From: Emiliania huxleyi CCMP1516 | Taxonomy: Eukaryota | NCBI RefSeq assembly: GCF_000372725.1 | Contig: NW_005201791.1 | Location: forward strand, 1-64,000 | DNA length: 64,000 bases | Direction of reading: 5' to 3' | Part shown: positions 3,997-61,415 of the stretch, piece by piece | Layout: every line of letters begins with the position of its first letter | Position numbering within the stretch: the stretch's first letter is position 1 | The notes under the pieces: model-generated | The model's database searches: none | What the model was told of the DNA's origin: nothing | Seen by the model: only the letters and a program-made list of their open reading frames with translations | Program-made: the position numbers and the translations under genes

Positions 3997-4090
3997 TAAA
4001 TCCATGGTATTGCGCCTCGGCGAGCGTCCGTGCAAAGTGTACTAACCCCCCCCCCCCCCGGAAAAAGAACTAGGTGCTCGCGTGCAGCAA

Positions 4091-6144
4091 ATGCACGACG
4101 AGGTGCACGACGAGCTAGCTAACACCGTGGCGGAGACCGGCGGTCTTCCCCATGCGGTGTGGACAGCGGCCGGGCGAGGCGACGAGGCGGCGCTGCTGTC
4201 GTGGCTCGAAAGCGGCGGGCGGGTCAATGCGACTTGCATGCTACGCGATGTGAGCGGCGTCACCGCGCTGATGCTCGCCGCCCAGGAGGGCCACGAGCGG
4301 GCGGTCGAGCTGCTGCTTCAGCGCGGCGCGGAGGTCAACCTGCAGAAGAGCGACGGCTACACCGCGCTGATGCTCGCCGCCATCGAAGGCCACGAGTGGG
4401 TGGTCGAGCTGCTGCTTCGGCGCGGCGCGGAGGTCAACCTGCAGAACAGCGACGGCTACACCGCGCTGATGCTCGCCGCCATCGAAGGCCACGAGCGGGT
4501 GGTCGAGCTGCTGCTTCGGCGCGGCGCGGAGGTCAACCTGCGGAAGAGCGACGGCTACACCGCGCTGATGGGCGCCGCCATCGAAGGCCGCGAGCGGTTG
4601 GTCGACCTGCTGCTTCGGCGCGGCGCGGAGGTCAACCTGCAGAACAGCGACGGCTACACCGCGCTGATCCTCGCCGCCTTCAACGGCCACGAGCGGGTGG
4701 TCGAGCTGCTGCTTCAGCATGGCTCGGGTGTCAACCTGCAGAACAGTATCGGCTTCACCGCGCTGATGGGCGCCGCCGCCAACGGCCACCGCGCCACCGT
4801 GCTCCGCCTGCTGCGGGCGGGCGCGGATACGAAGCTGCGCTCTGCGAAGGGCGTGTCCGCACTGCAGTACGCCAGGGGGCAGGGCCACAGCGAGTGCGTC
4901 GAGGCCTTCCGGCAGCACATCGCGGAGGTGACTGCGAGCCGGCGCGAGGCGGCGGCGGGCGGCGCGGACGGCGCTTCCTCGGGCGAGGCGGCGGCGGGAG
5001 CGGGGGCCGCGGCCTCTTCCGGCTCACTGGGCAGCCTTCCCAACGAGGCGGTGGCAGCAGCTCTCCAAGGCGACGAGGCGGCGCTGCTGGCGTGGCTCGA
5101 CAGCGGCGGGCGGGTCAATGCGACTTGCCGGGCGGGCGATCTGAGTGGCGTCACCGCGCTGATGTACGCCGCCACCAACGGCCGCGAGCGGGTGGTCGAG
5201 CTGCTGCTTCAGCGCGGCGCGGATGTCAACAAGCAGAACAGCAACGGCAGCACCGCGCTGATCCTCGCCGCCAGCAAAGGCCGCGAGCGGGTGGTCGAGC
5301 TGCTGCTTCAGCGCGGCGCGGATGCCAACCTGCAGAGCAGCATCGGCGACACCGCGCTGATGCGCGCCGCCGCCAACGGCCACCCCGCCATCGTGCTCCG
5401 CCTGCTGCGGGCGGGCGCGGGTACGACGGCGTGCGATGCGCGCGGCAGGACGGCGCTACAGATGGCCAAAAGCAAGGGCCACAGCGAGTGCGTGCGCGCC
5501 CTCGAGAAGCGCACGGCAGCGCATGCAGCGGCGAAGGAGGCAGCGCAGGCAGCGGCGAGGGCGGTGGAGAGTGCGGCGGCAGAGGCGGAGGCGACGCGGC
5601 ATGCCGAGGCGCTGCTGGCGGAGGAGGAGGCGGAGAAGGAGGCGGGGCGCGCCAAGGAGAGCAAGAAGGGGAAGAAGAAGAAGAAAAGGGGAGGGGTGGC
5701 GGCGGAGGCGCTGGGCCGTCGCAGGAGCCCGAGGATGAGGCGGAAGATGCGGGAGAGGGCGAGGCGGCGGCGGCGGTAGAAGAGGCGGAGCTGGCGGCGG
5801 CGCTCGAGGAGAGCGCGAGGCTGGAGGGAGCGAGGCCGGTGGTGGAGGAGCGGACGCTTGTCGCTGCGACCGAGGGCGGCTCGCCGTCGGCTGCAGAGGC
5901 GCCGGCTGCGAAGGAGGAGGAGCCGCCGGCCGACTTCATCTGCCCGATCACGACCGAGATCATGGTCGAGCCAGTCGTGGCGGCCGACGGGCAGTCGTAT
6001 GAGCGGACGGCGATCGAGCGCTGGCTCGCGACCAAGTCGACGAGCCCTCTGACGGGCGGCGAGCTCGAGCATAGCATCTTAATCCCGAACCACAATTTGC
6101 GCCGGACGATTCGAGAGTGGCAGGAGGCGCGGACGGCACTTTGA
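4091..6144 (+). CDS. Ankyrin-repeat U-box E3 ubiquitin ligase, with an apparent 1 nt frameshift near 5685
   Basis: Many G.TALMLAA..GH..VVELLL..GA.VN repeats; C-terminal U-box PPADFICPITTEIMVEPVVAADGQSYERTAIERW..TSPLT..LIPNHNLRRTIREW lies in a different frame. Confidence 0.9.
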
Positions 6145-6816: not shown

Positions 6817-7097
6817 TCCGGGCGAGTGTGGCAGCTCCTGCGCTAGTATGGGCACCCTCTATCACAACATTACTGATCCTGGTCATTAGAGCTGCCAGGG
6901 ATAGCGTCAGGAGCCGGTAGGAGTCAAAACCCCTCACATATTTGAGACATCGTGGGGCCTAAGGTAAGGTAAGGTAAGGTAAACTTCTCCACACACACGA
7001 GGTGGTGGGGCAAGGGGGGGCAACCCTCGCGTCTCCACGTCTGACGACAGGAGCCCCACGGCATTCAAAGTGCAAGGCCCAGTGCGCGTGGGTGAGC

Positions 7098-7163
<66 letters not shown>

Positions 7164-7419
7164 ACGTCACTGCATCCTCCGCCGGTTCCTCCCGTCGCCT
7201 CTTCTTTGTTCGAATGTTTTTCAATCCATCCTTCACGAAGCCCTCCCATGTAGCTAGCGTTCTTGGCGAATGTCTCCGGGCGAGTGTGGCAGCTCCTGCG
7301 CTAGTATGGGCACCCTCTATCACAACATTACTGATCCTGGTCATTAGAGCTGCCAGGGATAGCGTCAGGAGCCGGTAGGAGTCAAAACCCCTCACATATT
7401 TGAGACATCGTGGGGCCTA
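6817..7419 (+). repeat. 145 bp direct repeats (6817-6961 and 7275-7419) flanking a retroelement fragment; a related copy lies at ~39685-39810
   Basis: Sequence tccgggcgagtg...cgtggggccta occurs twice, identical by eye. Confidence 0.9.
6962..7274 (-). mobile_element. 5'-truncated non-LTR retroelement/SINE 3' end with (CCTTA)n tail
   Basis: Minus strand reads ...(CA)n...gccttgcactttgaatgccgtggggctcctg...gtgtggagaagtttaccttaccttacc; homologues at ~21741, 23840, 25703, 54072 and 62930. Confidence 0.8.
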
Positions 7420-11700: not shown

Positions 11701-11958
11701 TCTGGCGAAGGCCAATTCTGTCATCCTGGAAAGCCCAGAGCGGGACGTCAAGAGGCCATTTCGGCCGAAAAGCAGCACTGTTTTGGGCGGTACTCACTGC
11801 GGTACCTGAGGCACTTGGAGGCGCGACGTTTATTTGTTTAGGGGGTGAGAGGGCATCTACGGCGCCTGTTGTTCACTCGATCTCAGCTCCTCTGTGTTCG
11901 CGCTGACTGACGTAGTTGCGCCGCTGCACACCACCCAAAGGTTCGACACGCCGGAAAA

Positions 11959-12840
11959 ATGTCGGCGCTCACATCGCTCTACAGACCCGCCGAGTCGCAC
12001 ACCATCTATCCGTCGCGCGCCGTGCGGAGCGGCGCGCCGAGGTGGTGCCATCAGCTCATCGAAGCGCAGGAGAATGGGCGCTGCATCTCTCCGTTCACAA
12101 ACATCCCTGCGTCGCTCCGAGTGCCGCTGCACCTGCACCGCGACGCGTACCTCGCCGAGGTGCAGCGGGCCAGTGCGCCGCAGACGAATCTCACGTGGAT
12201 GTCGGGCCAGGGCCAGGATTGGTGGGTCTGGTACAACCACGCGCGCTTCCTCAACCGCAGCGCGACGTACGTCGACCTCGCCGCGAACGACGCGATCTGG
12301 CGCTCGAACACGTACTTCTTCGATGCGTGCCTTCACTGGCAGGGGCTCCTGATCGAGCCCAACCCGGTGCATTACGCGCGTCTCCGCCGCGAGCGAAGCG
12401 GTACGCTTGTGCCGGCGTGCGTCTCCAACACGACGTCGAACGTGAGCTTCCACGAGGGGCTCGGCTGGCGCGGCGGGTCTTCCAAGCTTCTGCCGGGTGC
12501 AGCGCGGCCGGAGGGCCACGGCGTGCGGACGGTGCAGTGCCGCTCGCTGCAGTCCATCATCCTCGAGGGCGGCCACCGCCACATCGACTTCCTCTCGCTC
12601 GACATCGAGGGCCACGAGGTGCAGGCGCTCTCGAGCATCGACCTAAGCAAGGTGCGCATCGACATCATCATCAGCGAGAACCCGCGCGTCGCCGAGCTCC
12701 TCCTGCGCAACGGCTACCGCCTGCAGTCGAGCGCGCACGACAACATCTTGCTGCGCAACCATTTCCAGCCCGCCATCACGCGGCACGGAGGCAAGGTCAC
12801 CGACCGCACGTCGAGCGGTTTTGAGAACAGCTGTGACTAG
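11959..12840 (+). CDS. FkbM-family (Methyltransf_21/Star-like) SAM methyltransferase
   Basis: GQGQDWWV..YVDLAANDA..SNTYFFD..WQGLLIEPNP..IDFLSLDIEGHE..L.SID..IDIIISEN; intronless 293 aa ORF. Confidence 0.9.
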   Translation: MSALTSLYRPAESHTIYPSRAVRSGAPRWCHQLIEAQENGRCISPFTNIPASLRVPLHLHRDAYLAEVQRASAPQTNLTWMSGQGQDWWVWYNHARFLNRSATYVDLAANDAIWRSNTYFFDACLHWQGLLIEPNPVHYARLRRERSGTLVPACVSNTTSNVSFHEGLGWRGGSSKLLPGAARPEGHGVRTVQCRSLQSIILEGGHRHIDFLSLDIEGHEVQALSSIDLSKVRIDIIISENPRVAELLLRNGYRLQSSAHDNILLRNHFQPAITRHGGKVTDRTSSGFENSCD

Positions 12841-17824: not shown

Positions 17825-18609
17825 TGTTAATGGTTCGATCCTCCCCAGAGTCGAACTGGCAGCCACTCGCACCGAGGAGGCGAGGTGTGGCTACGTGACC
17901 CGAAAAGGCCAGAGTCAGGAGCAACCCTCGAGCTGGGTCGCTCATATACTCAACACGCCCCCACGACGCAGCACGAGGTTGCTGCTGTATCTCCGATACC
18001 GCCGTGTTTCGAGGTAGGGCAGGCGTTCCGGGACGCGAGTTCCCCCGGGTTACCTTGGGCACTATTTTCGATCTTTTTCGTAGCGCACACACGAAGGGAC
18101 TCAAATCTTCGCAGACCGCCGTCGACCTGGGAGATCTCACCGGAGGTACCATGTTAATGGTTCGATCCTCCCCAGAGTCGAACTGGCAGCCACTCGCACC
18201 GAGGAGGCGAGGTGTGGCTACGTGACCCGAAAAGGCCAGAGTCAGGAGCAACCCTCGAGCTGGGTCGCTCATATACTCAACACGCCCCCACGACGCAGCA
18301 CGAGGTTGCTGCTGTATCTCCGATACCGCCGTGTTTCGAGGTAGGGCAGGCGTTCCGGGACGCGAGTTCCCCCGGGTTACCTTGGGCACTATTTTCGATA
18401 TTTTTCGTAGCGCACACACGAAGGGACTCAAATCTTCGCAGACCGCCGTCGACCTGGGAGATCTCACCGGAGGTACCATGTTAATGGTTCGATCCTCCCC
18501 AGAGTCGAACTGGCAGCCACTCGCACCGAGGAGGCGAGGTGTGGCTACGTGACCCGAAAAGCCCAGAGTCAGGAGCAACCCTCGAGCTGGGTCGCTCATA
18601 TACTCAACA
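17825..18609 (-). mobile_element. Tandem TRIM-like non-autonomous LTR element (LTR-int-LTR-int-LTR)
   Basis: 131 bp LTRs at 17825-17955, 18152-18282 and 18479-18609 with TGTT..AACA ends; 5 bp TSD CAAAG at 17820-17824 and 18610-18614; PBS TGGTACCTCCGGTGAGAT; PPT-like GGGGGCG. Confidence 0.92.
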
Positions 18610-18842
18610 CAAAGTTCTTGCCCTCCGGATGGCGGCGTGCCGTCGTGTTCTCGAGGTTCTCGAGGTGGATATCCTTTGGCCGCGTTGGGTAGCGAGGATT
18701 GGTGTAACCCGAGCCACGGAGGCGTGTTTTCTGACGGCCGACCGTCAGTGCACGGAGTTGCCCCTTCTTTCTCCGACTGCCCCGGCTAGTTCCCGAGGGA
18801 GGTCGTCGGGTGTGACCCCTGCGTCCCCCGAGACCTAGCGCG

Positions 18843-20909: not shown

Positions 20910-23900
20910 ATGTCTCTCTTCGCCTCGCTCGGCGCCGCCACGCTCGAGTACAGCACGCGCGAGCGTCGCGCCGCGCTCCGCCGGCCGCTCAACCTCTGGG
21001 ACTCGCACTCGCTGAGCGGCTCGAGCGAGGGCTGCCTCTCGCCACAGCATCGCGGCCAGTCCTCTTCCGACCGCGCATCGTCCGAAGACGGCGACGAGGT
21101 GCCGTCCAGCCCCGGAGAACCGCGCTCGTCGGTCGGCGACGTGCTCGGCCTCCTCGCGTCGCTGGAGCCGCTCCTCGCGCTGACGCACGCCCTCGCGCTG
21201 GAGCGGGGCACCACGACGGGGTGGGTCGCGAGCTGCGGCACGAAGCTGGCGCAGGCGGCGGCGACCCGTCGCGCCGTGACGGACGCCGCACTGGCGGCCG
21301 CGCCGGGCGACCACGCCAACCTCGCCGCTCTGCTCAGCCGCTGCCGCACCTCGGCGGACCGCGACGTCGCTGCGGCCAGCAAGGGTTCAACGAGCGCGGC
21401 CGAGGAGGGGGCGGCCTTTGTGGCGACGATGGGCGGGTACAACGCGCTGGCGTACCAGGCGCTGGCGGTGCTCTCCGAGCTCCCCGCGTGCGCCGCCGCC
21501 ACCGCCGTCTCCGAGTTTGCGGCGCTCAAAGAGACGTTTGCGCAGATCCGCGGCTATGTGACGGGGGCGCTGCTGCTGCGCGACGCGGCGCTCGCGGCGG
21601 TGCACGGCCAAGTCAAGGGGAGCCTCGTCATAGCGTTTCACCGCCGCCGCGCGTACGCGCGCTCGATCCGCCACCAGACGCCGCGCCGGCTGCTGCGCCT
21701 GATCGGTGCGGGGCTCGAGCTGCCCGCGGGCTTGGCGCAGGTCACCCACGCGCGCTCCGGGCCTTGCACATTGAATGCCATGGGGGGCTCCTGTCTCTTA
21801 GACGTGGGGTCGCGAGGGGCTTGGAGGGCCGTTTTCGATTTGGTGCTAGCCCTGCTGACAATGGGGGTGTTCCTCGCCACGGCCCTCGCCCCGCCACCTC
21901 GTGTGTGTGGAGAAGTGCGCCTCACCCGGCCTGGCCCCGCGCAGGTCGTGCAGCGCCTCGAGGTGGAGTGCGACCTCGTGGCCCTGCGCGCCACCCTCAA
22001 GCCGCAGCAGTGGTGGGGTCTCGTCACCGCCCACATCGACAGCCTCGAGACAATGCAGCACCTGCTCCTGGGCGCGTGCGCGCGGACGGCGCAGCGACGC
22101 GCCGCCGCCGTCGCGCTCGGCGCCGGCGCGCCCGCCGCGCCGCTCTCCACCGGCCCGCGCGCCGCCTCGCCGCGCCGCCGCCCCTCCCTCCGCCAGCTCA
22201 GCGACGACGAGCCGTCGGCCGGCTCGGTTGGCTCTGTCGGCTCGACGTGCTCGGCGGGTTCGGGCCCGGCGTCGCCGCCCCGCGGCGGCCACCTTCCCCG
22301 CGCAGCCGACTCGTACACGCGCCTCTTTGGAAGCCCGGGCTACACCGACCCGCCCGCGCTGCACCGGCGCCCGAGCGACCCGCTCTGCCGGCCGGCCGGC
22401 GGCAGGCCGGCAGGAGGCGCGTCGGCCGCGCCCGCGACGCTGCTCCAAGCCGCCGCGCTGCTGACGCTCGGCCGCGCGGCGGTGCGCCACGGCGCCGACG
22501 GCGCGAACGAGCTCGCCTCGCGCCTGTCGCAGCTCCCCGCCCGGAGGCTCAAGGAGTCACTCCTCGCGCTGGTCGACGAGCGGATGGCGCGCCACTCCGC
22601 CTCGCCCTCGCCCAACGCGTCGCCCGTGGTGACGCGGCTGCACGGCGCCGCCGGCGCCGAAAACACGCCGCCCGCCTCGCCGCCCGCCTCGCCGCGGAAG
22701 TCGCCTCCGAAGCCGGCGCTGCCCGAGGCGGCGCTGCTGCAGCCGCCCGACGGCGCGCGGCTGATCGGCCTCTCGGAGATCCTCTTTGCGCACCGGATCG
22801 GCGAGGGCGGCGCCGGCGCCACCTACCTGGCGCAGTGGAACGGCGCGACCGTCGCTGTCAAGGTTGCCGGCGGCGTCTGCAAGTGGCTCGAGTCGTGGCG
22901 TGCCGAGGTGGCTGCGCTGACCGAGCTGCGCCACCCGAACGTGGTCGAATTCCTCGGCTGCGTGGTGGAGCCGCCCACGCACTGCCTCGTGCTGCAGTTC
23001 TGCGAGGGCGGAGACCTGTACGAGGCGCTCCGCAGGCCGACGCCCCCGGGGCTCGCCCTCAAGGTGGGGCGCGGCGTCGCGGCGGGGATGCTCTACCTGT
23101 GCCCCCCAGCCGCAGCCGCGTCGGCCACTGCTGGGGACGCGCCCACGACCACGTCTCCGCGGTTGCGTCCTAGGCACAAGAAGAACTACATCCACCGCGA
23201 CCTCAAGTCGTCGAACGTGCTGCTCGACGCCTCGGGCACCGCCAAGCTGATGGATTTTGGGCTCTCTCGCCAGCTCGATGTCGACGCGGAGGCGAGAGGC
23301 CGCGAGAGGCCGCGAGAGGCCGCGAGAGACGCTCGCCCCTCGCCCCTCGCACCGGAGGGGGCCTCCTCACCGCACCCCCCCCTCTCCCCCCTCTCTCTCC
23401 CCCCCCTCTCTCCCCCCTCTCTCCCCCCCGCGACGCAGGAGCAGCTGACAGCCGAGACGGGCACCTACCGCTGGATGGCGCCCGAGGCGCTCTAAATGAA
23501 CTATTGATCAACTACCAATTAACTATTAATTAACCGCTGGATGGCGCCCGAGGCGCTCCCGGCGAGAGCGGGCGTGACGCGCCCCCCCTAGCCACGCCGA
23601 CGTCGGACACGAGCCTCGTCCGCAGGTGATCCGGCACGAGCCCCATATCTCCCCATATCTCCCCACATCTCCCCATATCTCGCCCTCAGGTGATCCGGCA
23701 CGAGCCCTACTCCGCCTCCGCCGACGTCTTCTCGTACGCGATGCTCTGGTTCGAGCTCATCACCCACGAGGTGCCGCGTGTGCGTGTCCCGTGTCCTTCC
23801 GTTGGGGTGGGGGGACCGAGGGGCAGGTAAATCCCTCCCCCACGTGCCCCGGGCTTCGCACGGGGTGTGCTGGGGGGCTCCTGTCTGGGGGGGGGAGATG

Positions 23901-24321
23901 CGAGCCCCCCCCCCCCCCCTGCCCCCCCCCTGTGTGTGTGCGTGGAGAACTTCACCTCACCTTGCCTTAGGTGCCGTATGCCGACCGGCCGCCGCTGCAG
24001 GCGGCCGTCTGCACGGGGCTGCAGGGCTTGCGGCCGCCGCTACCCGCCGCGACGCCGCCCTCGGTCCGCTCGCTCATCGAGCGCTGCTGGGCGGCGCCCG
24101 AGGCGCGGCCCTCGTTCGCCGAGCTGGTGGCGCTGACGGGCGATCTGGAGCCGGCGCTCTCGCAGGAGGAGCGCGCCTGGCTCGACGCGCCGGCGGGGCA
24201 CGCGGTGTCGTACGACGAGATGGCGCCGCCCAGGCCGGAGAACCAGCCGGGCGAGCGGCCGGCCGCTGCTTGCGGGGACGCTGGGGCGGCGTCGGAGGGC
24301 CCGCCGCCGCCGGCCGACTTG
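20910..24321 (+). CDS. NIT (nitrate/nitrite-sensing)-like domain fused to a TKL/Raf-like protein kinase
   Basis: N-terminal LTHALALERGTTTGWVAS..RRAVTD..LKETFAQIRG..WWGLVTAHIDSL; kinase motifs IGEGGAG, VAVK, LRHPNVV, IHRDLKSSN, DFGLS, TAETGTYRWMAPE, DVFSYA and CW..PEARPSF over six exons. Confidence 0.85.
21741..21944 (+). mobile_element. Intron derived from the retroelement 3' end
   Basis: tcacccacgcgc..gggccttgcacattgaatgcc..ccacctcgtgtgtgtggagaag matches the 6962-7100 element; gcgcaggtc is repeated at both junctions. Confidence 0.8.
23771..23970 (+). mobile_element. Intron derived from the retroelement 3' end
   Basis: Ends gtggagaacttcacctcaccttgccttag; aggtgccg is repeated at both junctions. 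Confidence 0.75.
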
Positions 24322-25149
24322 NNNNNNNNNNNNNNNNNNNNNNNNNNNNNNNNNNNNNNNNNNNNNNNNNNNNNNNNNNNNNNNNNNNNNNNNNNNNNNN
24401 NNNNNNNNNNNNNNNNNNNNNNNNNNNNNNNNNNNNNNNNNNNNNNNNNNNNNNNNNNNNNNNNNNNNNNCGCAGGGCAGTGGCACGGGCATTACACGGC
24501 GAGCGCCGCTTGGGGCAGCTTCCGAGGTGCCCAAAGAGCACGTAGGTTCAGGCCTATGATGCCACTCTCGCGGCTTGCAGCGCGTCACTCGCGCATGCTC
24601 TCCAGGAGCTATGGCGGGCGCGTGTGTGGGGCTGTAGCCTGTGTTTGGCCGGTTCTGACCCGTTTACTATCAGTATCATGTCCGGGCCACAAAAAATCGC
24701 ACACGGGTAGCGGCTCAGGGGCCCAGTAAGTCGCGGAATCGCCAAATGTCACAACCTGCGCCACCCAGGGCTGGACCTAGTCCTAAAATCTGAGGATTCA
24801 GGATTGAGGCATCGCTTCAGTGAGGCCAAAGTGAGTTTATGGATGTGTGAGAACGGTACGGGACACGAGGAAGCACGCGGACCGACTCGTCGGCGACTCT
24901 GCTGCACGCCGTTTCAGAATTTTTCTCAGCGTGAGCGAGACGTGGAAGAGTGCCACCGTCGGGTAGGACGGGTCGGCCCGGAGCATCAGAGTAGCCGTCG
25001 TGGTCGTGGCGAGCAGCGCCGGCCACTCCGGCGCCGCGTCGGCAACATGGGAGCATGTCCACCGCCACTTCGCGGTCGCAGCGCTGTTGTCGCCCAAAAC
25101 GCCGCTATGTACCTTTTCGGGCAAACTATCGAGCTGTATGTCGATTTCG

Positions 25150-25196
25150 ACTTGACGGCGGCATGGAGGCATGATGCCTCCATGCCGCCGTCAAGT
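25150..25196. repeat. Perfect palindrome with 23 bp arms and a 1 nt loop
   Basis: acttgacggcggcatggaggcat-g-atgcctccatgccgccgtcaagt. Confidence 0.95.
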
Positions 25197-25515
25197 TGGA
25201 GCCAGTCTGCGGCGACCACAGCGCTCAGAAAGGTACATAGCGAGCTTTTCAGAGTCACGCGATTGTGCGAAATCCCACACTGGTGAATTTTGGGGCGCTG
25301 TGCACCCCCTACTTTCGAGGGCGAGGAGGACGACCTACCTTCCCCGGTTCCCGGACCCTGGCAGTTTATTGGCCCAGGCCCCAATTTCATCGAATTTATT
25401 TCAAAATCTGCAGGCGCGGAGCGCCTGCGAAAATTTTGAAGAAATTTGCAGTCGGGCCTGATTTTCATCAAGATCTTTCAAATTTGCGGTGTGGAGTTGT
25501 TGGGGGGCCGGGGGT

Positions 25516-25703
25516 GGGTTAGGGTTATTAGGGTTAGGGTTAGGGTTAGGGTTAGGGTTAGGGTTAGGGAAGGGCTAGTCTTGTTGTGTCTGTATATGCT
25601 AGCGTTGCAGGGTTCTGCGCTGGGTTCTGGCCCCCAGCGCCGACGACTAAGACTCAGTCCCGCACGCTGACCTAGGGTTAGGGTTAGGGTTATAGGGTTA
25701 GGG
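25516..25703 (+). repeat. Interstitial telomeric (TTAGGG)n, two tracts
   Basis: Tracts at ~25516-25569 and ~25673-25703. Confidence 0.95.
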
Positions 25704-25784
25704 GGGGCAACCCTCGCGTCTCCACGTCTGACGACAGGAGCCCCACGGCATTCAAAGTGCAAGGCCCGTTGCGCGCGGGTGAGC

Positions 25785-25876
<92 letters not shown>

Positions 25877-26690
25877 ACGTCACTGCATCCTCTGCCGGTT
25901 CCTCCCGTCGCCTCTTCTTTGTTCGAATGTATTTCAATCCATCCTTCACGAAGCCCTCCCATGTAGCTAGCGTTCTTTGCGAATGTCTCGAAATGGCCAG
26001 CAGGCGCTGTCTGCTCGCGGTCTGTGCGGGCCGCTCGTCCTCCTCGCCCTTCTTTCGTCCTCCCATCCCTCCCCTCCACTATGGCCTTCTCGGCACTTCT
26101 TTCTCCATCCGCCTCGCCCTGCCTTTTCGTATCGTGCCGTTCGCCCTCCATTTGGTAACCTCCATGGCTGTCCGCCTCCTTTTGGGTGGCGCTCTCGATA
26201 CGGTTGCGTCAACCTCGACGTCGCTGTCGCCCTCCCCGTCCCCTCCGTCGTCCGTGCCTCGGTTCGCGTCATCGGTAGCGTCTCCGTTGTTCCCTCGTGC
26301 CCCGCCGTCGCCCTCTCTGCTCGGGCCGTTCGCGATCTCGCTCCTCCTGCGTGTCGCCCCTCCGGCTCCCCCCCTGCCTTCGTCGTCATCGTCGCTGTCG
26401 CGAAAGCCCTCCGGCCCCTCGATTCCCTCGCCTATCCCCTCCGCTGCGTCGTCCCAGTTTATATCCTCACTAGCAGGTTGGCTCGCTAGTCGCTCGCCGG
26501 CCCGCGCAGCACGCGCGGGCCTTTTTTGTGGTCGGATGTTGGTCGTCTCGAATTTGATCGTGGGCAGGGCGTGAGAAAGCTGGACAGCTCGGTCGATGCG
26601 AGCCACTTGGCCTGTCCGAGGGTTTCCGGCAACCCAGAGGGAAACCAGAGGGTCCCCAGCACTTTGCGTTTCCGGAAGTTTCCAGGGAAA
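25703..26690 (-). mobile_element. Retroelement 3' region fused to telomeric repeats
   Basis: 25703-25990 is nearly identical to 7014-7276. The extension to the gap (including a 175 aa acidic ORF at 26079-26606) is assumed, not shown. Confidence 0.7.
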
Positions 26691-27452
26691 NNNNNNNNNN
26701 NNNNNNNNNNNNNNNNNNNNNNNNNNNNNNNNNNNNNNNNNNNNNNNNNNNNNNNNNNNNNNNNNNNNNNNNNNNNNNNNNNNNNNNNNNCCCTCTCCCT
26801 CTCCCTCTCCCTCTCCCTCTCCCTCTCCCTCTCCCGCTCCCTCTCCCTCTCCCTACAGGACAGGCTGGCATGCCTAGTCCAGGACGTGTCCGAGACATGT
26901 CCCATCTAGGCGCCCTACAAGAAAGCCGCCGTGAGGGCGGGCCGGAGTTGTGCGCGGGTCCGGAATACGCCGCGGATGCGCCCGAGTGGCGCGGGAGGGG
27001 AGCCGCGCCCCCCCCCGAGTGTTTCGTCTTTGTGTGGTCGCTGGAGTGATCTGAGGTTGTACGGACTTTGAAAGACCGATGGGAGCGGCGTGTGGATTTG
27101 AGGTTGTACGGACACACTGGCATGACGCGTGATTGTGATGAACTCCCCTCCCTCCACCCGCGACCCGGCAGCACACCCTGCACGCTCCCATCGGATGGGT
27201 TCCACCCCGCTGATCAGACAGGGCGCGGGGCGAGCCACATCATCACCGGCTCGCGGCAATAAGGACACTCTCGCATCAGCTCGGAGCATGGACCGCAAAC
27301 GCACAAGTGGCTGCACGGCACCGCGAGGTGAGACTTCGGCCGCTCGAAGCATATGATGCACGACGTCTCTCCCCCCATCTGATCGATGTTTTTCCGTTCA
27401 ATACGTCTTTTTACGAAGGGTATAAACCAAAGCGACTCAGCGCTGAGGCGTC

Positions 27453-27642
27453 CTAGAAGCGGGCGCCATCTGCAAGAGAAAATTTTGTTTCATCTGGTTC
27501 CAAATGCGTCGAGTTTTCAATTACATTTTGCGATCTGTGATCTGTAAAGAGTAAACATACTACCGGTACTACTGTTAACGAGATACTGAGGTCGGCCTTG
27601 GACCACTTTTTTCGATATTGGTGTATCTTTTCAGCACACCAG
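27453..27642 (+). mobile_element. Intergenic MITE-like relative of the introner family
   Basis: Starts CTAGAAGCGG and ends gatattggtgtatcttttcagcacaccag, versus introner end gatgttggtgtattcagcacgtag. Confidence 0.6.
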
Positions 27643-27707: not shown

Positions 27708-28886
27708 TCAGTGCGCACGCGCGGCCACCTCCACCCACTTGGGCTCCGCGCCGCGCTCGACGACGAGCGCGTGCTCTGCGAGGTTTACAGTCGGACAGAC
27801 GTGGCGCGGGATGAGGAGCAGCGGCGTGCCGCGCGGCGGTGGCGGCTCGCTGCTCGCCATTGGCAGGTGCTCCTCGCTGGGACCCAGCGCCTCGAGCTGC
27901 GGCACCTCCAACACGCGCGCGACTGGGCTGCCGGCCTCGCAAGCGAGTGCCTTGGAGCCCGCGTCGAGCGTGACGACGCACGGCTGCCCCGGCGCGCTCC
28001 ACGGGCGAGGGTGCGATACCACGCGCGATAGCACGAGCGCCGCGGGCAGGAGGCCCAGCGCCTCGCCGCCCTCCATCTCCTCCGACATGCTGTCGTGGAA
28101 GACGACCGTGCCCGGTGAGATGCGATGCGTCGGCGCCTCGTTGACTTTCTCGCCGTAGTAGCGCAGCGCCTCGAGGCAGGTGGGGGTGCCCGACGTGATC
28201 ACCTCTTCCACGGCGATCCCGCGAGACCTCAGCGTGCCCACCAGCACGTCAAGGGAACCATAGACCTTGTCGGCCTCCGAGCGGCGCTTCTCGGCAGACT
28301 CGTCTGAGAGGTGGCCTTCATAGTAGTGCAGCCCACGGAAGCGAGCTCCAGCAGCCGTCGCGATGGCGGCAATGTCGTCGGTCGCCTCGAAGGGTACACC
28401 GGTGCGATCATAGCCGGGGTTGATGTCGATGAAGATGTCAAGAGAGCCGGGCAGGCGCGGCGCGGCAGCGGCGTCCTCGCAGAGCACCCCGAGCCGCACC
28501 TCCGGAAACTCATCGGCGAGGTCAGCGAGCTGCTTCAGGCTGGGGCCGATGAGCGGGTACGCCAGCAGCACGTCGCCGTCCGTTATGGCGCGCCCTCGCA
28601 GGACACCGCACATGAGGCGCGCCTCCCTCACAGTGGCGCACTTGAAGTGGCGAACCCCGGAGGCGACACACGCTTCGTAGACGGGCGCCATCTTGGTGGT
28701 CTTGAGGTGCGGGCGCCAGCGTGCGGCGTCACCACCGCAGTGTGCGAGCATCGTGGCGAGGTTGTGCTTCACCTGGTCCATAAACACCACGAGCTGAGGC
28801 GAGGGTATCTCGGCGCGGAGCGAGGCGGGTAGCAGCTCCTCGTACGTGCCGCGATCCAGCGCCCCGAAGGGCTCGGCTGACTGCAT
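27708..28886 (-). CDS. Fold-type III PLP enzyme of the D-serine dehydratase/D-threonine aldolase (D-TA) family
   Basis: WRPHLKTTK, FKCATVREA, DINPGYDRTGV, GLHYYEGH, GTPT, LDAGSKA, SEEH and PRHVCPTVNL; intronless. Confidence 0.93.
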   Translation of the reverse strand: MQSAEPFGALDRGTYEELLPASLRAEIPSPQLVVFMDQVKHNLATMLAHCGGDAARWRPHLKTTKMAPVYEACVASGVRHFKCATVREARLMCGVLRGRAITDGDVLLAYPLIGPSLKQLADLADEFPEVRLGVLCEDAAAAPRLPGSLDIFIDINPGYDRTGVPFEATDDIAAIATAAGARFRGLHYYEGHLSDESAEKRRSEADKVYGSLDVLVGTLRSRGIAVEEVITSGTPTCLEALRYYGEKVNEAPTHRISPGTVVFHDSMSEEMEGGEALGLLPAALVLSRVVSHPRPWSAPGQPCVVTLDAGSKALACEAGSPVARVLEVPQLEALGPSEEHLPMASSEPPPPRGTPLLLIPRHVCPTVNLAEHALVVERGAEPKWVEVAARAH

Positions 28887-29071
28887 CGCCACCCGTACCC
28901 CCAAGGCATGTGGCGAGTACAGACACGCCTGCTATTCACAGCACAACGTCTCACTTGGCGGCTTCGGGCAGTGAAAAGCATCCCTTTTCCGGACGGACCC
29001 CCTGGTGTGAAAACGTGAGGCGTGGTCAACAACTCAGCGCTGAGGCGGCACCCGGAGCAGCACACGCTCAC

Positions 29072-37303: not shown

Positions 37304-38528
37304 CACTGGTCAAACTATTAGCCTCATAATGAGGAAAAGGCTAATAGCGATTTCAAATAGTGCTACTATTAGCTCAGAGGGGCTAATAGCTGAGCTTCAT
37401 AACGTCTGGAGCTATTAGAACACCACTATGAGATGGGCTAATAGCGACTATTAGGGCGCTATTAGGGCACTATGAGAGCCGAATAGTGGCCCTAATAGTG
37501 CCCTAATAGTGCGGTACCCGCGCGACGCGCACTACGCGCGGCGCGGCAAGAGCGATGGCGCCGACTCTCTAGGAGACGGGCTTCCATGAGGCAACCACGG
37601 CGAACGAGAAGGTCACCGTGGAGTCGTTGAACTTGACCGTGGTGACGTCAGGCTTGGTGGTGCTCTTCATCACCTTGACGCACCAGCCGCCGGCGGAGAC
37701 GCCGGGCCACAGCGAGGGCGGCGCGAGCAGGAAGCTGGTCGTGCGGTCCGCACGAGCGCGGGTGTTGCCTGCGCAACAGGGGCACGGGGACGAGCGTCAG
37801 CCCGGCAGCTTGCGGCGGCGCGCGCGCGCGGCGACGGTGCGCACGGCTTGGGAGAGCAGGGAGAGAGAGAGAGAGATAAGGCCGCTGCCGCCGCAGAACG
37901 CAGGATGTGGCTGCGTGCGGGGCGCGGCGGGCGCGGGCGCGCGCTCGGACCTTGCAATTTCAAACTGCGCACGCCCTGATCACGAACAGGATGCGGGCGG
38001 CGCAGAGATCTGCTGCCGCCCGGACCGCCGCCCGGGGATGACCCAGGACCTCGCCGGCGCTGCGCCGGCGAGGGGCCGAAGCCCGGCGGTTGATCACGTT
38101 CTCCACACCCGCGCGCGCTGTGCGGTCGCCGTTCCGCCTCACAAGGCTTCTCGCCGGATCCGCGATCACCGTGGATGGACGCCAAGAAGACCAGCGCTGC
38201 GCCGCACGCCGCCAAACCACCACGCTGGCGCCAGCTCGCAGAGGGTTTCTCGCTGCACGCCAGATGGTCAGCGGGCGCCGATGGCGGCATGGGCGCGACG
38301 AGCTCCGTGGCCGGCATGTCGCTATGAGGCCCAGCTATTAGGCCGCGCCGTGAAGCATGCGGCATGAATCGCGAAATCGCTAAGTGCGCATTATGAGGGT
38401 CCATTATTAGGACATCGGCTATTAGCACACCTAATAATTGCACTATTAGCCCCTCTGAGCTAATAGTAGCACTATTTGAAATCGCTATTAGCCTTTTCCT
38501 CATTATGAGGCTAATAGTTTGACCAGTG
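37304..38528. mobile_element. Non-autonomous TIR DNA transposon with CACTG ends (CACTA/CMC-like)
   Basis: ~85 bp terminal inverted repeats starting cactggtcaaactattagcc; many subterminal ctattag/ctaatag motifs; CAGCA on both flanks. Confidence 0.88.
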
Positions 38529-39880
38529 CAGCAGCATCTGCACCACCAAAGCCAGGCCACACACTCCACGCTGGCCCACAGAGTCCCACTCTAGGGTGCC
38601 CACAGGACCAAAAAAAGAAAGGAAAAAAGAAATGGGGCACTCCCGATCGCAGCACTTCATGTTGGATAGTCGAGATATTGAGAGTGTGACTAGGAGGGCG
38701 GGACGCTGGGGATTCTCAAAGGTATACCCTTGGAATGGCCGGATCCAGCCTTAAAAGTACGAGATCGCGCGCGCTTCGCGCACAGCACCGCCTGTTCTCC
38801 GCGGCTGTGTGACGACGCGTGCCGTGTGCCAGCAGAGTTGGGCGCGCGCGGCGCGACGGCGCCCGCGAGGGAAGGCGCGGGTGCAGCGGCCGCCGGCGGC
38901 CGTACCGCTCGCCAGCCAGCGCAGCAGCGGCCAGCGCAGCGGCCGCCGGCGCAGCAGCAAGATCAGCCGGTGCGCGCCTTGCGAGGCGAGTACTGCCGCC
39001 CGGCAGCCTTGAGGCGGCCGGGCGGCAGTACTCGTTCGAACTTTGCGAGCCGTGCGCGCGCCGAGGCGCCCGCGGCGCGCGCCCGCCCGGCTGCCAGTAG
39101 GAGGCGGCGCAATATGGCCTATAGTACAGCCCTTAGGAGGAGGAAGAGGCTGGCTGGCAGTGCTGTATGCCGCCGAGGGGCAGTTTTGGGGTGCTGTCCC
39201 CATCCCAGGGGGCTGCAGAAGGCGTCCGCAGCCGGGACAACCCGCCCCCCCAGCCGAGGCCGGTCGAAGCCCACTTGAGCACAGCCATGAGGAGTCCTCT
39301 TGGTGCTCCTGGCGGCCGTTGGAATGGCGAGCGCGCGCCGATGGGGGGGGGGGGGGGGTCTTGCTTGCTCCACACCGAGCGCCATCGGTCCGGACCGGCG
39401 TGCTCACCGAGGGGTGGCCTGCACAAGGTCTGAGCCGCGGGCGCTCGGCGCCAAGTGCAGTGTCACGCTCGCACGCGAAGGGGACACAAGGGAAACCCTC
39501 GTTTCCTATGTACTCGGTCCCCCAACGGAAGAGGCCTCGCTCCTATTGGAACAATCCAACATCAGATTTGCCTCGTGCGTCCCTTTTTCAATGTATGTGG
39601 TTTTTGAGCCGAAAAGCTATTTTCTTTTGGGTCCTGTGGGCACCCTACCCACGCTCCCTGGAAGCGATGCGCCGCCTTTTGCTTCTGCGCTAGTATGGGC
39701 AGCCTCTATCACAACACTACTGACCCTGGTCATTAGAGCTGCCAGGGGTAGCGTCAGGGTCAGGAGCCGGTAGGAGTCAAAACCCCCCTCATATTTGAGA
39801 CATCGTGGCCCACATACACTCGTGCATCGAGCCGTACGGTTTACGTAAGGTCGTGCATCGAGCCGTACGGTTTACGTCAC

Positions 39881-57632: not shown

Positions 57633-59030
57633 GCCACGGCCACCACCCTTGCCACCGCCCTTGCCGCCGCCCTTGCCACCCTTTGCCGCCTTGCCTCCGC
57701 CGCGGGCGGAGGTGGGAGCGGCCTGCTGGGCTAGCATGTTGTCCGTGCTGTGGACGGGCACGTGGAACGTCAATTCATGTTCGAACGGCCTCCGGGATTC
57801 AAACAAAAAATAGCCGGGGCCCTCTCGCAATCCCTCCGACCCCCCGGGACCCGTGGGCGTCGAAGAGGCGCTCTCGGGGGGCCGTTCTGAGTTCATGCTA
57901 CCACGAAGCACACTGTGCTGCGTCAAAGCACCGGCCCCGAGTCCGTCTGCCGTCGGATTTGTGACTCCGCCGCACCGCGCCGCGGCCGGGGGCCCTCCGG
58001 AGGCCGAGGATGGCCGTGGCGGACCGGGACGAGCTCTGGGAGGTAAGGTGTCAGTGAGTATATTGTAGAGACTGTCCATGAGCACAATATCTCTAAGTCT
58101 AGCTAAGCCAGGGGAGGCGATGCCGGGCGGGGCCGTACATACAGCAGCTTGATGGTGCTTCGCCGGCGTGCGTCCCGGAGCGGTCCCGGACGGGCGGTCC
58201 GTGGGAGGAAAACGAGGGACCGCGCCGACGGCGCTCTGATTCGACTTTTAACTTCAAACAAAGACAGTCGCACGCGCCGCAGCGCGGCGCGTGCGACTGT
58301 CAGGAGCGGCTGGTCGGCCGCCATGTGGGCCTCCGGGCCCGCTGCGGCGGGGGACGCCGCAAGCTGTCAGAGAAGGAGCATGACGAAGGCGAACACTGCG
58401 AAGTAATTGACTGCCAGATGATCCGAATCGGCTCGTTGCTCGTTCGCAGCACCGTTGGCTCCGGTCCGCGGTTTGAGGGAGGGGCAGCCGCAGCACGAAG
58501 AGCCATGTCAAGAGAGCCGCAGCGAGTGCCAGCAAGACCAGGCGCCAGGCGCGCATCGCCCAGATGGACTGGCGGATCTGCCCAACACACCCGGCACCAA
58601 GCCCCCACAGCGCGGCAGCGGGCCACAAGGTGAGCCTGCAAAGCCCCAAGAGCAGCCAGTGCGCGACTGGGAAGACGGTGACCTGCCAGAGCGCCGGAAC
58701 TAGGAGGATCCACAGAGTGCCGAACAGAACCACGTGTCTTGGGCCCGCTCCTCTTCGAGACGAGGTAAACCTAGCCAAGCAGGGGAGCGACATGGTCGAA
58801 TCCAAAATCTTGGAGCACTTGGAGTGCAGTCATTAGCCTCACATCCAGGGCCGGGGAGCTCAGAAGCGCACCCAGCGGGCCGGATGATCGGGATCGGGTT
58901 GCGGGCAAGAGAGCCCTAGCCCCGGGGGTGCGCGTTCGCAGGGCAAGGGCTGTAAAGTAAACACGGGTCTCCGAGAATCCGATTTTTTTCTGCCAGCACA
59001 TTGGCACTGCTCGCGGCCATCTCGCGCATT

Positions 59031-61415
59031 ATGCTCCTCGCCACCGCTGCCACCGCGCTCAGCGTGCGCATGTCGGCCGCGCCCGCGCCGGCGAGCGCCT
59101 CTGCCTCCTCGACTTCGGGCGCCGCCGACGCGCCGCTGCTGCTGCGAGCGGCGCGAGGCGAGGTCACCGAGTCGACGCCAGTGTGGATGATGCGGCAGGC
59201 GGGCAGGCACATGCAGGTGTACCGCGACCTGGTGAAGGACTACCCGACGTTTCGCGAGCGCTCCGAGATTCCCGACGTCTCGTATGCCGTCTCGATGCAG
59301 CCGCGCGACGCCTATGGCACCGACGGAGTGATTTTGTTCTCCGACATCCTCACGCCTCTGCCTGCAATGGGCGTCGACTTTGCGATCTCCGAGGGCGGAG
59401 GGATCACGATCGACCCGATCCGCACGCGCGAGGCCTTCGCCAAGATGACCGCCGTCCCCTTCGAGCCCGAGACGAAGATCAGCTTTGTCGGCGACGTGCT
59501 CAAGGCGCGCGCCGCCTTTCTCGACCTCGCCGCCTCTCGTCCCTGCCTTCTCCTCCCCGCACCGCCCCCGCCCCCCCCCTCCCACACTCGACCCCCCGCT
59601 CTCCGCCGCCCACTCCCTTCCGCCGCCCTCTCTCGCCGCCGCCTCCCTCGCCGCCGCCCTCGCCGCCGCCGCCCTCGCCGCCGCCCTCGCCGCCGCCGCC
59701 CTCGCAGCCGCCCTCGCCACCGCCCTCGCCACCGCCCTCGCCTGACCGCGGCTTCGCCTGCGGCTGCAGCGGCTGCGCGCGACGTTGGCCGGCACCGACG
59801 CGACGGTGCTCGGGTTCGTCGGCCTCCCGTTCACGCTGGGCACGTACCTCATCGAGGGCGCCACCGGCACGAAGACAGGCTTCGCCGCGATGAGGCGCCA
59901 CACCTCCCCATACCTCCCCATGCCTCCCCATACCTCCCCATACCTCCCATACCTCCCCATACCTCCCCATACCTCCCATACCTCCCCACATCGCCCCACA
60001 TCGCCCCACATCGCCCCACATCGCCCCACATCTCACATCTACATCTCCCCGCATCTCACATCTACATCTCCCCGCATCTCCCCGCAGGCAGCTCCGAGAG
60101 TCCGACCCGCAACTCGTGGCCGACATGCTCAAGCTGCTCGGTCGCCCCTCCTCTCCCCTCCTCCTCCCCCGTCCTCTCCCCTCCTCTCCCCTCCTCTCCC
60201 CTCCTCCTCCCTCCTCCTCGCCGCCTCCTCGCCCTCCCGCAGCAGATTCCCCTCCCCTCGAGCGCCGCGGAGCCTCCCTGCAGGCGACCGGATCGCGCAG
60301 TACGCAATCTACCAGATCGACTCTGGCGCGCAGGTGCGGAGACACCTCCCCAGACCTCCCCAGACCTCCCCAGACCTCCCCAGACCTCCCCAGACCTCCC
60401 CAGACCTCCCCAGATTTGGGGGGCAGCTCCCCCCCCCCCCCTGTCGTACCCCCACTTGAGGGTCGGCAGCCCCCCCCACCCCCCCCCCCCCCCCTTCACT
60501 CGAGGGTCCGGCGAGGTCAGCCTAACGGAGCTCAGAGCTCTCATCATTGCAGGCAGACAGACACAGACAGACAGGCGCGGGCAGACAGAAGCGGGTGTGG
60601 CCTGCCAGGTGGTCCAAGTCTTCGACTCGTGGGCGGGCCACCTCACGCCGGACGAGTTTGACGAGTGGGCGGCCCCCTTCCAGCGGCAAGTCGTTGGCGC
60701 CATCAAGGCGGCCGCTCTCCTCCTCTCCTCTCCTCTCCGCCTTTCTGCTCCCACCACTCCTCCTCTCCTCTCTCTCCCCTCTCCCTCCTCCTCCCTCTCC
60801 TCCTCTCTCCTCCTGCCCCCTCTCCCTTTCCCCTCCTCCGTCTCCGCTCCGCTCCCCCTGCTCCTCCCTCTCCTCTCCAGCTGAGACAGGCCCACACGTG
60901 CTCCCAGGCTGCGCGGCCCGATACGCCCGTAATCATCTACATGGCCCCCGACACCCACTCCAAGGAGGGGGCGCTTATCACCAAGCTCGCGGCCTCGGGC
61001 GCAAACGTCGTCTCGGTCGACCACACCCTCCCGATCTCCGCGGCGCGCGAGCTGCTCGACGAGGCCGGCTACGAGTCGGTCGGCTTGCAGGGCAACCTCG
61101 ACCCCGCCATCCTCGCCGAGGGGTCGGAGGAGGAGATCGTCGCCGCCGCGCAGGAGTGACTGCTGCTCTGAGTCTCAGCCTGCTTCCTGCGACAGCTAGC
61201 GCCACTCTTGCTGAGCTCAGCAGCGGCGTCAGCATCCGCATCATTCACTCCTATTACTCCTCCAAGTCTTCTCCCTGCTGCCCCGCGCGCAGGACATCCT
61301 CAAGAAGATGGCTGGTCGGCCGCACATCATGAACCTCGGCCACGGCATCGAGCCGACCACCCCCGAGCCGTCGGCCAACCTCTTTGTCAAGACGGTCCAG
61401 GAGTGGCGCAACTGA
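59031..61415 (+). CDS. hemE: Uroporphyrinogen decarboxylase, probably plastid-targeted; multi-exon
   Basis: Signal-like N-terminus; [50 protein letters not shown] and HIMNLGHGI. Confidence 0.96.

What the first reader, a model, noticed from the sequence alone, without database searches (positions are those of the whole stretch)
25516..25990. Retroelement apparently primed on a telomeric G-strand
Seen: (TTAGGG)n runs directly into gggggggcaaccctcgcg, the antisense strand of the retroelement. This copy lacks the last ~50 nt including the tail; the join is at the element's C-run (GGG microhomology). A ~100 bp unique spacer splits the telomeric tract. Known: endonuclease-independent priming at telomere 3' overhangs occurs for Athena/Penelope-like elements and for L1 at deprotected ends. 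Inference: a former or healed chromosome end extended by reverse transcription and now internal.
Basis: partly seen in the sequence, partly recalled or inferred. Interest (0 to 1): 0.7.

Follow-up and report, generated by a model that had tools for sequence, protein, structure and literature searches.

The report
LINE fragment patched with telomere repeats
A broken-off tail end of an ordinary, genome-wide jumping gene of a marine alga abuts two short runs of chromosome-end repeats inside a chromosome, most likely as the scar of a single DNA-break repair rather than the work of a telomere-seeking element.

Summary
The junction is real, with three corrections. The shared sequence is AGGG, not GGG. 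The element runs 25700-26469, not to 25990. The 103-nt 'unique' spacer is a multi-copy repeat. The element is not Athena/Penelope-like. It is the 3' 770 nt of a dispersed LINE with a (CCUUA)n tail, whose ORF carries RNase H-like, CCHC and SET-like regions; its relatives add APE endonuclease and RT (Dualen-like architecture). The family normally makes target-site duplications (26 of 35 copies; control 17 of 175). None of 111 informative metagenome loci has a telomeric array at its 3' end, and two other sites are cut at the same G-rich motif without telomeric repeats. The join lies at one of only 3 sites in 316 nt with 4 nt of exact telomere microhomology, so it was homology-guided. Best reading (0.5): an existing LINE copy lost its tail in a break closed with telomeric filler. 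Spanning reads and an empty site were not obtained. A one-off example of known processes.

The parts
25516..25569 (+). Interstitial telomeric tract 1, 8 perfect TTAGGG plus one slipped unit, preceded by a G-rich flank
25570..25672 (.). 103-nt 'spacer': piece of an unidentified multi-copy repeat; a variant copy elsewhere also follows TTAGGG, and other copies run on past 25672 into different sequence
   Evidence: tables 2, 4, 5c, 7, 8; no Rfam match; folding not clearly beyond shuffles (z -1.4 and -1.8)
25673..25703 (+). Interstitial telomeric tract 2, 31 nt, 3 perfect TTAGGG plus one slipped unit like that in tract 1
   Evidence: (family D3)
25700..25703 (+). AGGG shared by the last telomeric unit and the LINE (junction microhomology; 11 of 16 nt imperfect)
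25700..26469 (-). 3' fragment (770 nt) of a dispersed LINE: last ~197 codons of the ORF (with an in-frame stop at 26079-26081), 3' UTR with (CA)45; cut at both ends, tail and 53 nt missing
26470..26690 (.). Non-telomeric 5' flank of the LINE copy, up to an assembly gap; not duplicated to the left of the junction
24471..25515 (.). Block of other multi-copy repeats with an internal palindrome (25080-25249), starting at an assembly gap
6960..7276 (-). Reference copy of the same LINE with intact (CCTTA)n tail, flanked by a 145-bp perfect direct repeat (6817-6961, 7275-7419)

Best explanation
A 770-nt 3' fragment of a dispersed, duplication-making LINE is joined through a shared AGGG to a short internal TTAGGG tract, most likely because an ordinary copy later lost its tail in a DNA break that was closed by telomeric filler and microhomology annealing. 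Shown: the element's identity, its normal tail and duplications, the 53-nt loss, the microhomology, and the absence of this junction type in other copies. Inferred steps: (1) the LINE inserted by normal target-primed reverse transcription with a tail and a short duplication; (2) a break or deletion removed the tail, the left duplication and the rest of the neighbouring repeat; (3) telomerase added (or a nearby tract supplied) about five TTAGGG units on the left end; (4) that G-rich end annealed to the element's own telomere-like motif and was sealed.
For: Family behaviour: 107 of the 111 loci with at least 60 nt of tail-side sequence keep the tail (105 by script, plus L080 and L094 on inspection) and 0 of 111 have a telomeric array there (102 distinct flanks among the 109 loci with at least 90 nt). 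Duplications of 6-15 nt in 26 of 35 copies tested, against 17 of 175 mismatched-flank controls. Where the LINE hit a telomere-like heptamer it kept its tail and made a duplication (L112/L116, one site). Two of the 3 distinct tail-less sites (L011; L038=L102) are cut within about 10 nt of the same motif, with non-telomeric partners. The starting configuration exists: L077 has a same-polarity TTAGGG tract about 1.6 kb from an intact tail. The tail itself matches a telomeric end at 7 of 9 nt, as well as the internal site does, so priming would be expected to keep it (inference). Short interstitial tracts inserted at breaks come with deletions in about half of the cases in mammals (PMC2246262, passages), and such tracts are pervasive in a coccolithophore (PMC13518057, passages).
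Against: No empty site or allele with the tail was seen, so the order of events is not shown. No remnant of a left duplication or tail was found (it could lie in the 149-N gap at 24322-24470 or be deleted). The tail-like 4-mer in the 5' flank is weak: 7 of 32 tailed copies show one, against 9% of random positions. Polarity, tail loss and lack of duplication are equally what endonuclease-independent insertion gives (PMC4700185, PMC1920257, passages). The tail-less copies L011 and L038 could themselves be internal-priming products. The tract-spacer-tract-LINE stack is all in one polarity, as successive extension of one 3' end would give.
Confidence: 0.5

Rival explanations
1. Endonuclease-independent priming: the LINE reverse transcriptase used a TTAGGG 3' overhang, paired to an internal CCCU site of its RNA, copied 770 nt, and the end was then joined to other DNA. 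The overhang was more likely a freshly telomerase-extended internal break (about 0.25) than a true former chromosome end (about 0.08).
For: Correct polarity; no tail; no duplication; the join is at 1 of 3 sites in 316 nt with 4 nt of exact microhomology, with 11 of 16 nt matching; the copy is as young as open-frame copies (24 differences in 594 nt to each of L051 and L020, which differ from each other by 24). L1 does this at unprotected telomeres and gives 3'-truncated copies without duplications (PMC4700185, passages).
Against: 0 of 111 informative loci show it; the same motif is cut with non-telomeric partners; the 5' end is not telomere-capped; genes flank the site closely; the family's relatives carry an APE endonuclease.
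Confidence: 0.33
2. Assembly artefact: the 2.2-kb contig between two gaps consists only of repeats and the junction is a chimera.
For: Gaps at 24322-24470 and 26691-26790; no listed run holds half the words; no bridging piece among the 32 of 6520 shown.
Against: Only 4 nt of exact overlap, far too little for an overlap misjoin; contigs drop rare variants of high-copy repeats; a spacer-to-TTAGGG join is seen in an independent marine run (X2 record 23).
Confidence: 0.07
3. A telomere-targeting retroelement family that inserts regularly into TTAGGG.
For: The tail (CCUUA)n resembles the telomeric C-strand; 2 of 117 loci have a single TTAGGG beside the tail (L002, L111). Contigs tend to break at telomeric arrays, which hides such copies.
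Against: 102 distinct, unrelated flanks and no arrays at the junction; five other window copies are dispersed.
Confidence: 0.03

Closest known systems
Short interstitial telomeric sequences inserted at double-strand breaks (PMC2246262)
   Same: Short internal TTAGGG tract, loss of flanking sequence, microhomology, location inside repeats.
   Different: There the empty site was compared between species; here none is available. Two tracts bracket a separate repeat. The microhomology shown here is at the 3' side of the tract.
Endonuclease-independent L1 insertion, at telomeres (reviewed in PMC4700185) and in the human genome (PMC1920257)
   Same: 3'-truncated, tail-less copy without target-site duplication, G-strand running into the antisense element.
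   Different: Different LINE lineage and host; PMC1920257 required the pre-insertion site to exclude later deletion, which could not be done here.
Athena and Coprina endonuclease-less Penelope-like elements (as described in PMC8557442)
   Same: Junction polarity only.
   Different: This family is dispersed, makes duplications, has a (CCUUA)n tail, no hammerhead match, and relatives with APE endonuclease and RNase H.
Dualen/RandI LINEs (PMC5029228, PMC9977147)
   Same: One very long ORF with APE, RT, RNase H and CCHC order in relatives; a SET domain (also in cryptophyte Dualen-1_GCr); an occasional very long duplication (145 bp).
   Different: No restriction-like endonuclease recognised after the CCHC motif; the SET-like domain is C-terminal to RNase H, whereas it is listed first in the cryptophyte protein; no RT tree with reference clades was made.

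Membership tests
Athena/Coprina EN-minus Penelope-like elements | No endonuclease; not inserted by nicking | tested here: not met
   Duplications in 26 of 35 copies vs 17 of 175 controls; APE matches in 4 relatives (P0001, P0010, P0014, P0016; below Pfam cut-offs). The family's own N-terminus was not recovered.
Athena/Coprina EN-minus Penelope-like elements | Reverse-complement telomeric repeats with hammerhead ribozyme near the 3' end | tested here: not met
   Tail is (CCUUA)n; no hammerhead among 8 Rfam matches at E up to 1.
Athena/Coprina EN-minus Penelope-like elements | Confined to chromosome ends | tested here: not met
   102 distinct non-telomeric flanks; six copies in this 64-kb window.
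Telomere-targeting LINEs (SART/TRAS, MoTeR; names recalled and) | Recurrent insertion into telomeric repeats | tested here: not met
   0 of 111 informative loci; short-read contigs under-sample telomeric arrays.
Endonuclease-independent (non-classical) LINE insertion | 3' truncation of at least 20 nt, no tail, no target-site duplication | tested here: met
   53 nt missing; no duplication of 6 nt or more at either tract boundary.
Endonuclease-independent (non-classical) LINE insertion | Pre-insertion site shows the truncation is not a later deletion | not testable with these tools
   No whole genome or orthologous locus was held.
Telomerase-inserted short interstitial telomeric sequence | Short tract with in-register microhomology to the empty site | tested here: inconclusive
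   Tract 1 follows a G-rich flank; tract 2 has AGGG at its 3' side; no empty site.
Dualen/RandI LINEs | Single long ORF with APE, RT, RNase H, CCHC | tested here: inconclusive
   Open frame of at least 1289 aa with RNase H-like region and CCHC motif; APE and RT seen only in 31-37% identical relatives.
Dualen/RandI LINEs | Restriction-like endonuclease at the C-terminus | tested here: inconclusive
   No Pfam match and no motif recognised by eye after the CCHC; a divergent one is not excluded.
Dualen/RandI LINEs | RT groups with Dualen references in a tree | not tested
   No named reference RTs were returned.

The most novel reading that the evidence does not exclude
The site is a relay of reverse transcriptases on one broken end: the 103-nt 'spacer' is the 3' end of an undescribed telomere-seeking retroelement (or read-through of the unidentified haptophyte telomerase RNA) that starts on TTAGGG in tens of places, was re-capped by telomerase, and was then extended by a SET-domain LINE primed inside its RNA. 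The many internal telomeric tracts of coccolithophores would then be patches co-written by telomerase and retroelements.
Probability: 0.15. Interest if true: 0.6.

Novelty: new member of a known kind. Interest (0 to 1): 0.22.

Why it matters
As it stands it is one repair scar, and both candidate routes are documented in other organisms, so it matters little alone. Two leads have more value. First, the spacer family, which follows TTAGGG in at least one other copy and could be a real telomere-associated element or point to a haptophyte telomerase RNA. Second, the LINE family itself, with a SET-like domain, a telomere-like pentamer tail and duplications from 6 to 145 bp. If priming on telomeric ends proved recurrent in long-read genomes, it would be a natural case of a process mostly seen in repair-deficient cell lines.

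Tried and rejected
No whole genome is held for the window, so no genome-wide junction census or synteny test. No RT ORF in the window: Pfam on 112 of the 199 stop-to-stop frames and tblastn with 5 relatives plus the L051 ORF found only this family's C-terminal fragments. The element motif was absent from viral contigs. The spacer motif was absent from viral and prokaryote genome contigs, the spacer from all 117 loci, and its onward sequence from the loci and the window. The left block had no phage match. PDB sequence searches gave nothing useful. My first duplication script (10-nt seed) missed short duplications and was replaced. The idea that the shared slipped unit in both tracts is a target-site duplication is unresolved: it occurs twice in the window and in 0 of 117 loci, but the two copies differ by one base and do not start in register. 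The joint 25692 to 25601 does not prove a tandem array, because tract 1 was skipped and the repeats were laid on tract 2; it shows only that a variant spacer follows TTAGGG. An RTE-clade or Chlamys-type identity (my first guess) was dropped: domain order in relatives and mostly short duplications fit neither better than a Dualen-like LINE. Telomerase healing of the element's own broken 3' end was rejected: wrong strand. Literature searches (listings only) showed no description of this family or of a haptophyte telomerase RNA; Repbase and subscription journals were not searchable, so this is weak. Gladyshev and Arkhipova 2007 and Morrish 2007 were not read; they are cited through PMC8557442 and PMC4700185.

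Full report
What is there. The window is GC-rich eukaryotic DNA with six assembly gaps. I infer a coccolithophore-like haptophyte: GC near 65% (G. huxleyi about 66%, 10.1101/2024.05.26.595999, passages), marine sources, and a Phaeocystis hit in the relatives' RT family. Host genes were not used to test this. TTAGGG is the haptophyte telomere repeat (PMC3622300, passages). The site lies in a 2220-nt contig between gaps. Left to right on the + strand: a block of other repeats (24471-25515), tract 1 (25516-25569), a 103-nt spacer, tract 2 (25673-25703), the element's antisense strand, and a non-telomeric flank.

The element. Self-comparison and alignment found six copies in the window. The copy at 6960-7276 has an intact (CCTTA)n tail and a 145-bp perfect flanking duplication. 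A 26-nt motif starting just inside the junction matched 117 metagenome loci, most from two assemblies. Two long copies, L051 and L020, extend the window copy to 26469 at 96% identity and hold open frames of at least 1289 and 1298 aa. These contain an RNase H-like region (atlas score 0.92-0.93), a CCHC motif and a SET-like region (Pfam E 0.14; atlas 0.95; a relative passes the Pfam cut-off). A 3159-aa relative, 32% identical over 336 aa, has APE, RT and RNase H in that order; further relatives repeat parts of this (244 proteins at E up to 0.001). The family's own APE and RT lie beyond the stretches fetched, so they are inferred. This is a LINE with a Dualen-like layout (PMC5029228, PMC9977147, passages), not a Penelope-like element.

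How the family inserts. Of 117 loci, 111 have at least 60 nt on the tail side; the other 6 were set aside (3 show a tail but no flank, 3 are too short to tell). Of the 111, 107 keep the tail and 4 loci (3 distinct sites) do not; none has a telomeric array at the junction. The motif was chosen so that a junction like the window's would have been caught, but short-read contigs break at telomeric arrays, so such copies are under-sampled. Duplications of 6-15 nt flank 26 of 35 copies with both ends in view, against 17 of 175 controls; at 8 nt or more, 21 of 35 against 3 of 175. The family therefore normally nicks its target. At one site (L112/L116) the duplication is a telomere-like heptamer and the tail is kept.

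The junction. The copy lacks 53 nt. The last telomeric unit and the element share AGGG exactly and 11 of 16 nt imperfectly; only 3 positions in the 316-nt reference copy offer 4 nt of exact match, so the join was homology-guided. The tail offers 7 of 9 matches too. No duplication of the 5' flank exists at either tract boundary. Two of the three other tail-less sites are cut at the same G-rich motif and joined to non-telomeric DNA, so the motif is a general weak point or priming point.

The spacer and the left block. Contigs of four runs from four studies cover the spacer and most of the left block deeply and with variant letters. In one run a variant spacer with 3 differences in 16 nt also follows TTAGGG; in two runs the spacer runs on past 25672 into other sequence; in one marine run it runs into TTAGGG as here. 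It is a repeat family tied to telomeric repeats, of unknown nature. I could not fetch a longer copy. Its first 9 nt look like worn telomeric units, as in L053.

Is the locus real and was it a chromosome end? Not shown. No run held half the words (best 0.49) and no bridging piece was among the 32 of 6520 listed; both are expected for a rare variant of high-copy repeats, and a direct read test of the junction was not obtained. A kinase gene ends near 24320, a RING-like frame lies at 27214-27489 and a D-serine dehydratase-like gene at 27708-28931. Telomere-type tracts occur in 3 of 117 loci (223 kb), and are described as pervasive internally in Calcidiscus (PMC13518057, passages). A short internal tract is thus no sign of a former end.

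Mechanism. Two routes give this scar. In the first, an ordinary copy later loses its tail in a break that is filled with telomeric repeats and closed on microhomology; in mammals about half of such insertions come with deletions (PMC2246262, passages). In the second, the LINE enzyme primes on a TTAGGG 3' end inside its RNA, as L1 does at lesions and unprotected telomeres (PMC4700185, passages). PMC1920257 (passages) notes that later deletion mimics the second route and that only the pre-insertion site separates them. I favour the first (0.5 against 0.33) because the family is a duplication-maker, the junction type does not recur, the same motif is cut without telomeres, and the tail would pair as well as the internal site. 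The uniform polarity of the stack is the best point for the second route and for the novel case.

Verdict. Real junction, known kinds of process, one example, order of events open. Interest 0.22. Supplements of the cited papers were not opened; those of the bioRxiv genome paper are closed and could bear on repeat annotation.

Noticed in passing
window 6817-7419: LINE copy flanked by a 145-bp perfect duplication, ten times the family's usual 6-15 nt; very long duplications are reported for an active Dualen LINE (PMC9977147). The duplicated sequence is itself a repeat (39681-39808, 90%).
   Followed up: partly
L051 3-3872; P0081; P0076: The LINE ORF ends in a SET-like domain and a long acidic tail; one relative has a SET domain above the Pfam cut-off and another a chromodomain, suggesting chromatin modules recur in this lineage.
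   Followed up: partly
window 21742-21910 and 23835-23969: Two older copies of the LINE 3' end lie within the span of the NIT-domain protein kinase gene, probably in introns; the first lies inside long stop-free frames.
   Followed up: no
window 25080-25249: Nested palindrome with a perfect 23-bp hairpin (25150-25196) inside a high-copy repeat.
   Followed up: no
window 37304-38528: About 1.2-kb element with 86-bp perfect terminal inverted repeats, MITE-like.
   Followed up: no
window 17825-18610: 327-bp unit in 2.4 tandem copies at 99% identity.
   Followed up: no
L030 tail side: The LINE 3' end (tail plus about 17 nt) is present three times in tandem, suggesting repeated re-priming.
   Followed up: no
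L077 1-130; L053 1447-1494; L031 5-55: Telomere-type tracts, perfect to degenerate, near other LINE copies; L077 has the same polarity as the window's, about 1.6 kb from an intact tail, and runs to the contig end.
   Followed up: partly
window 4046-6144, 11911-12840, 27708-28931, 58956-60884: Host genes by Pfam: ankyrin repeats with U-box, FkbM methyltransferase, D-serine dehydratase-like, uroporphyrinogen decarboxylase.
   Followed up: no
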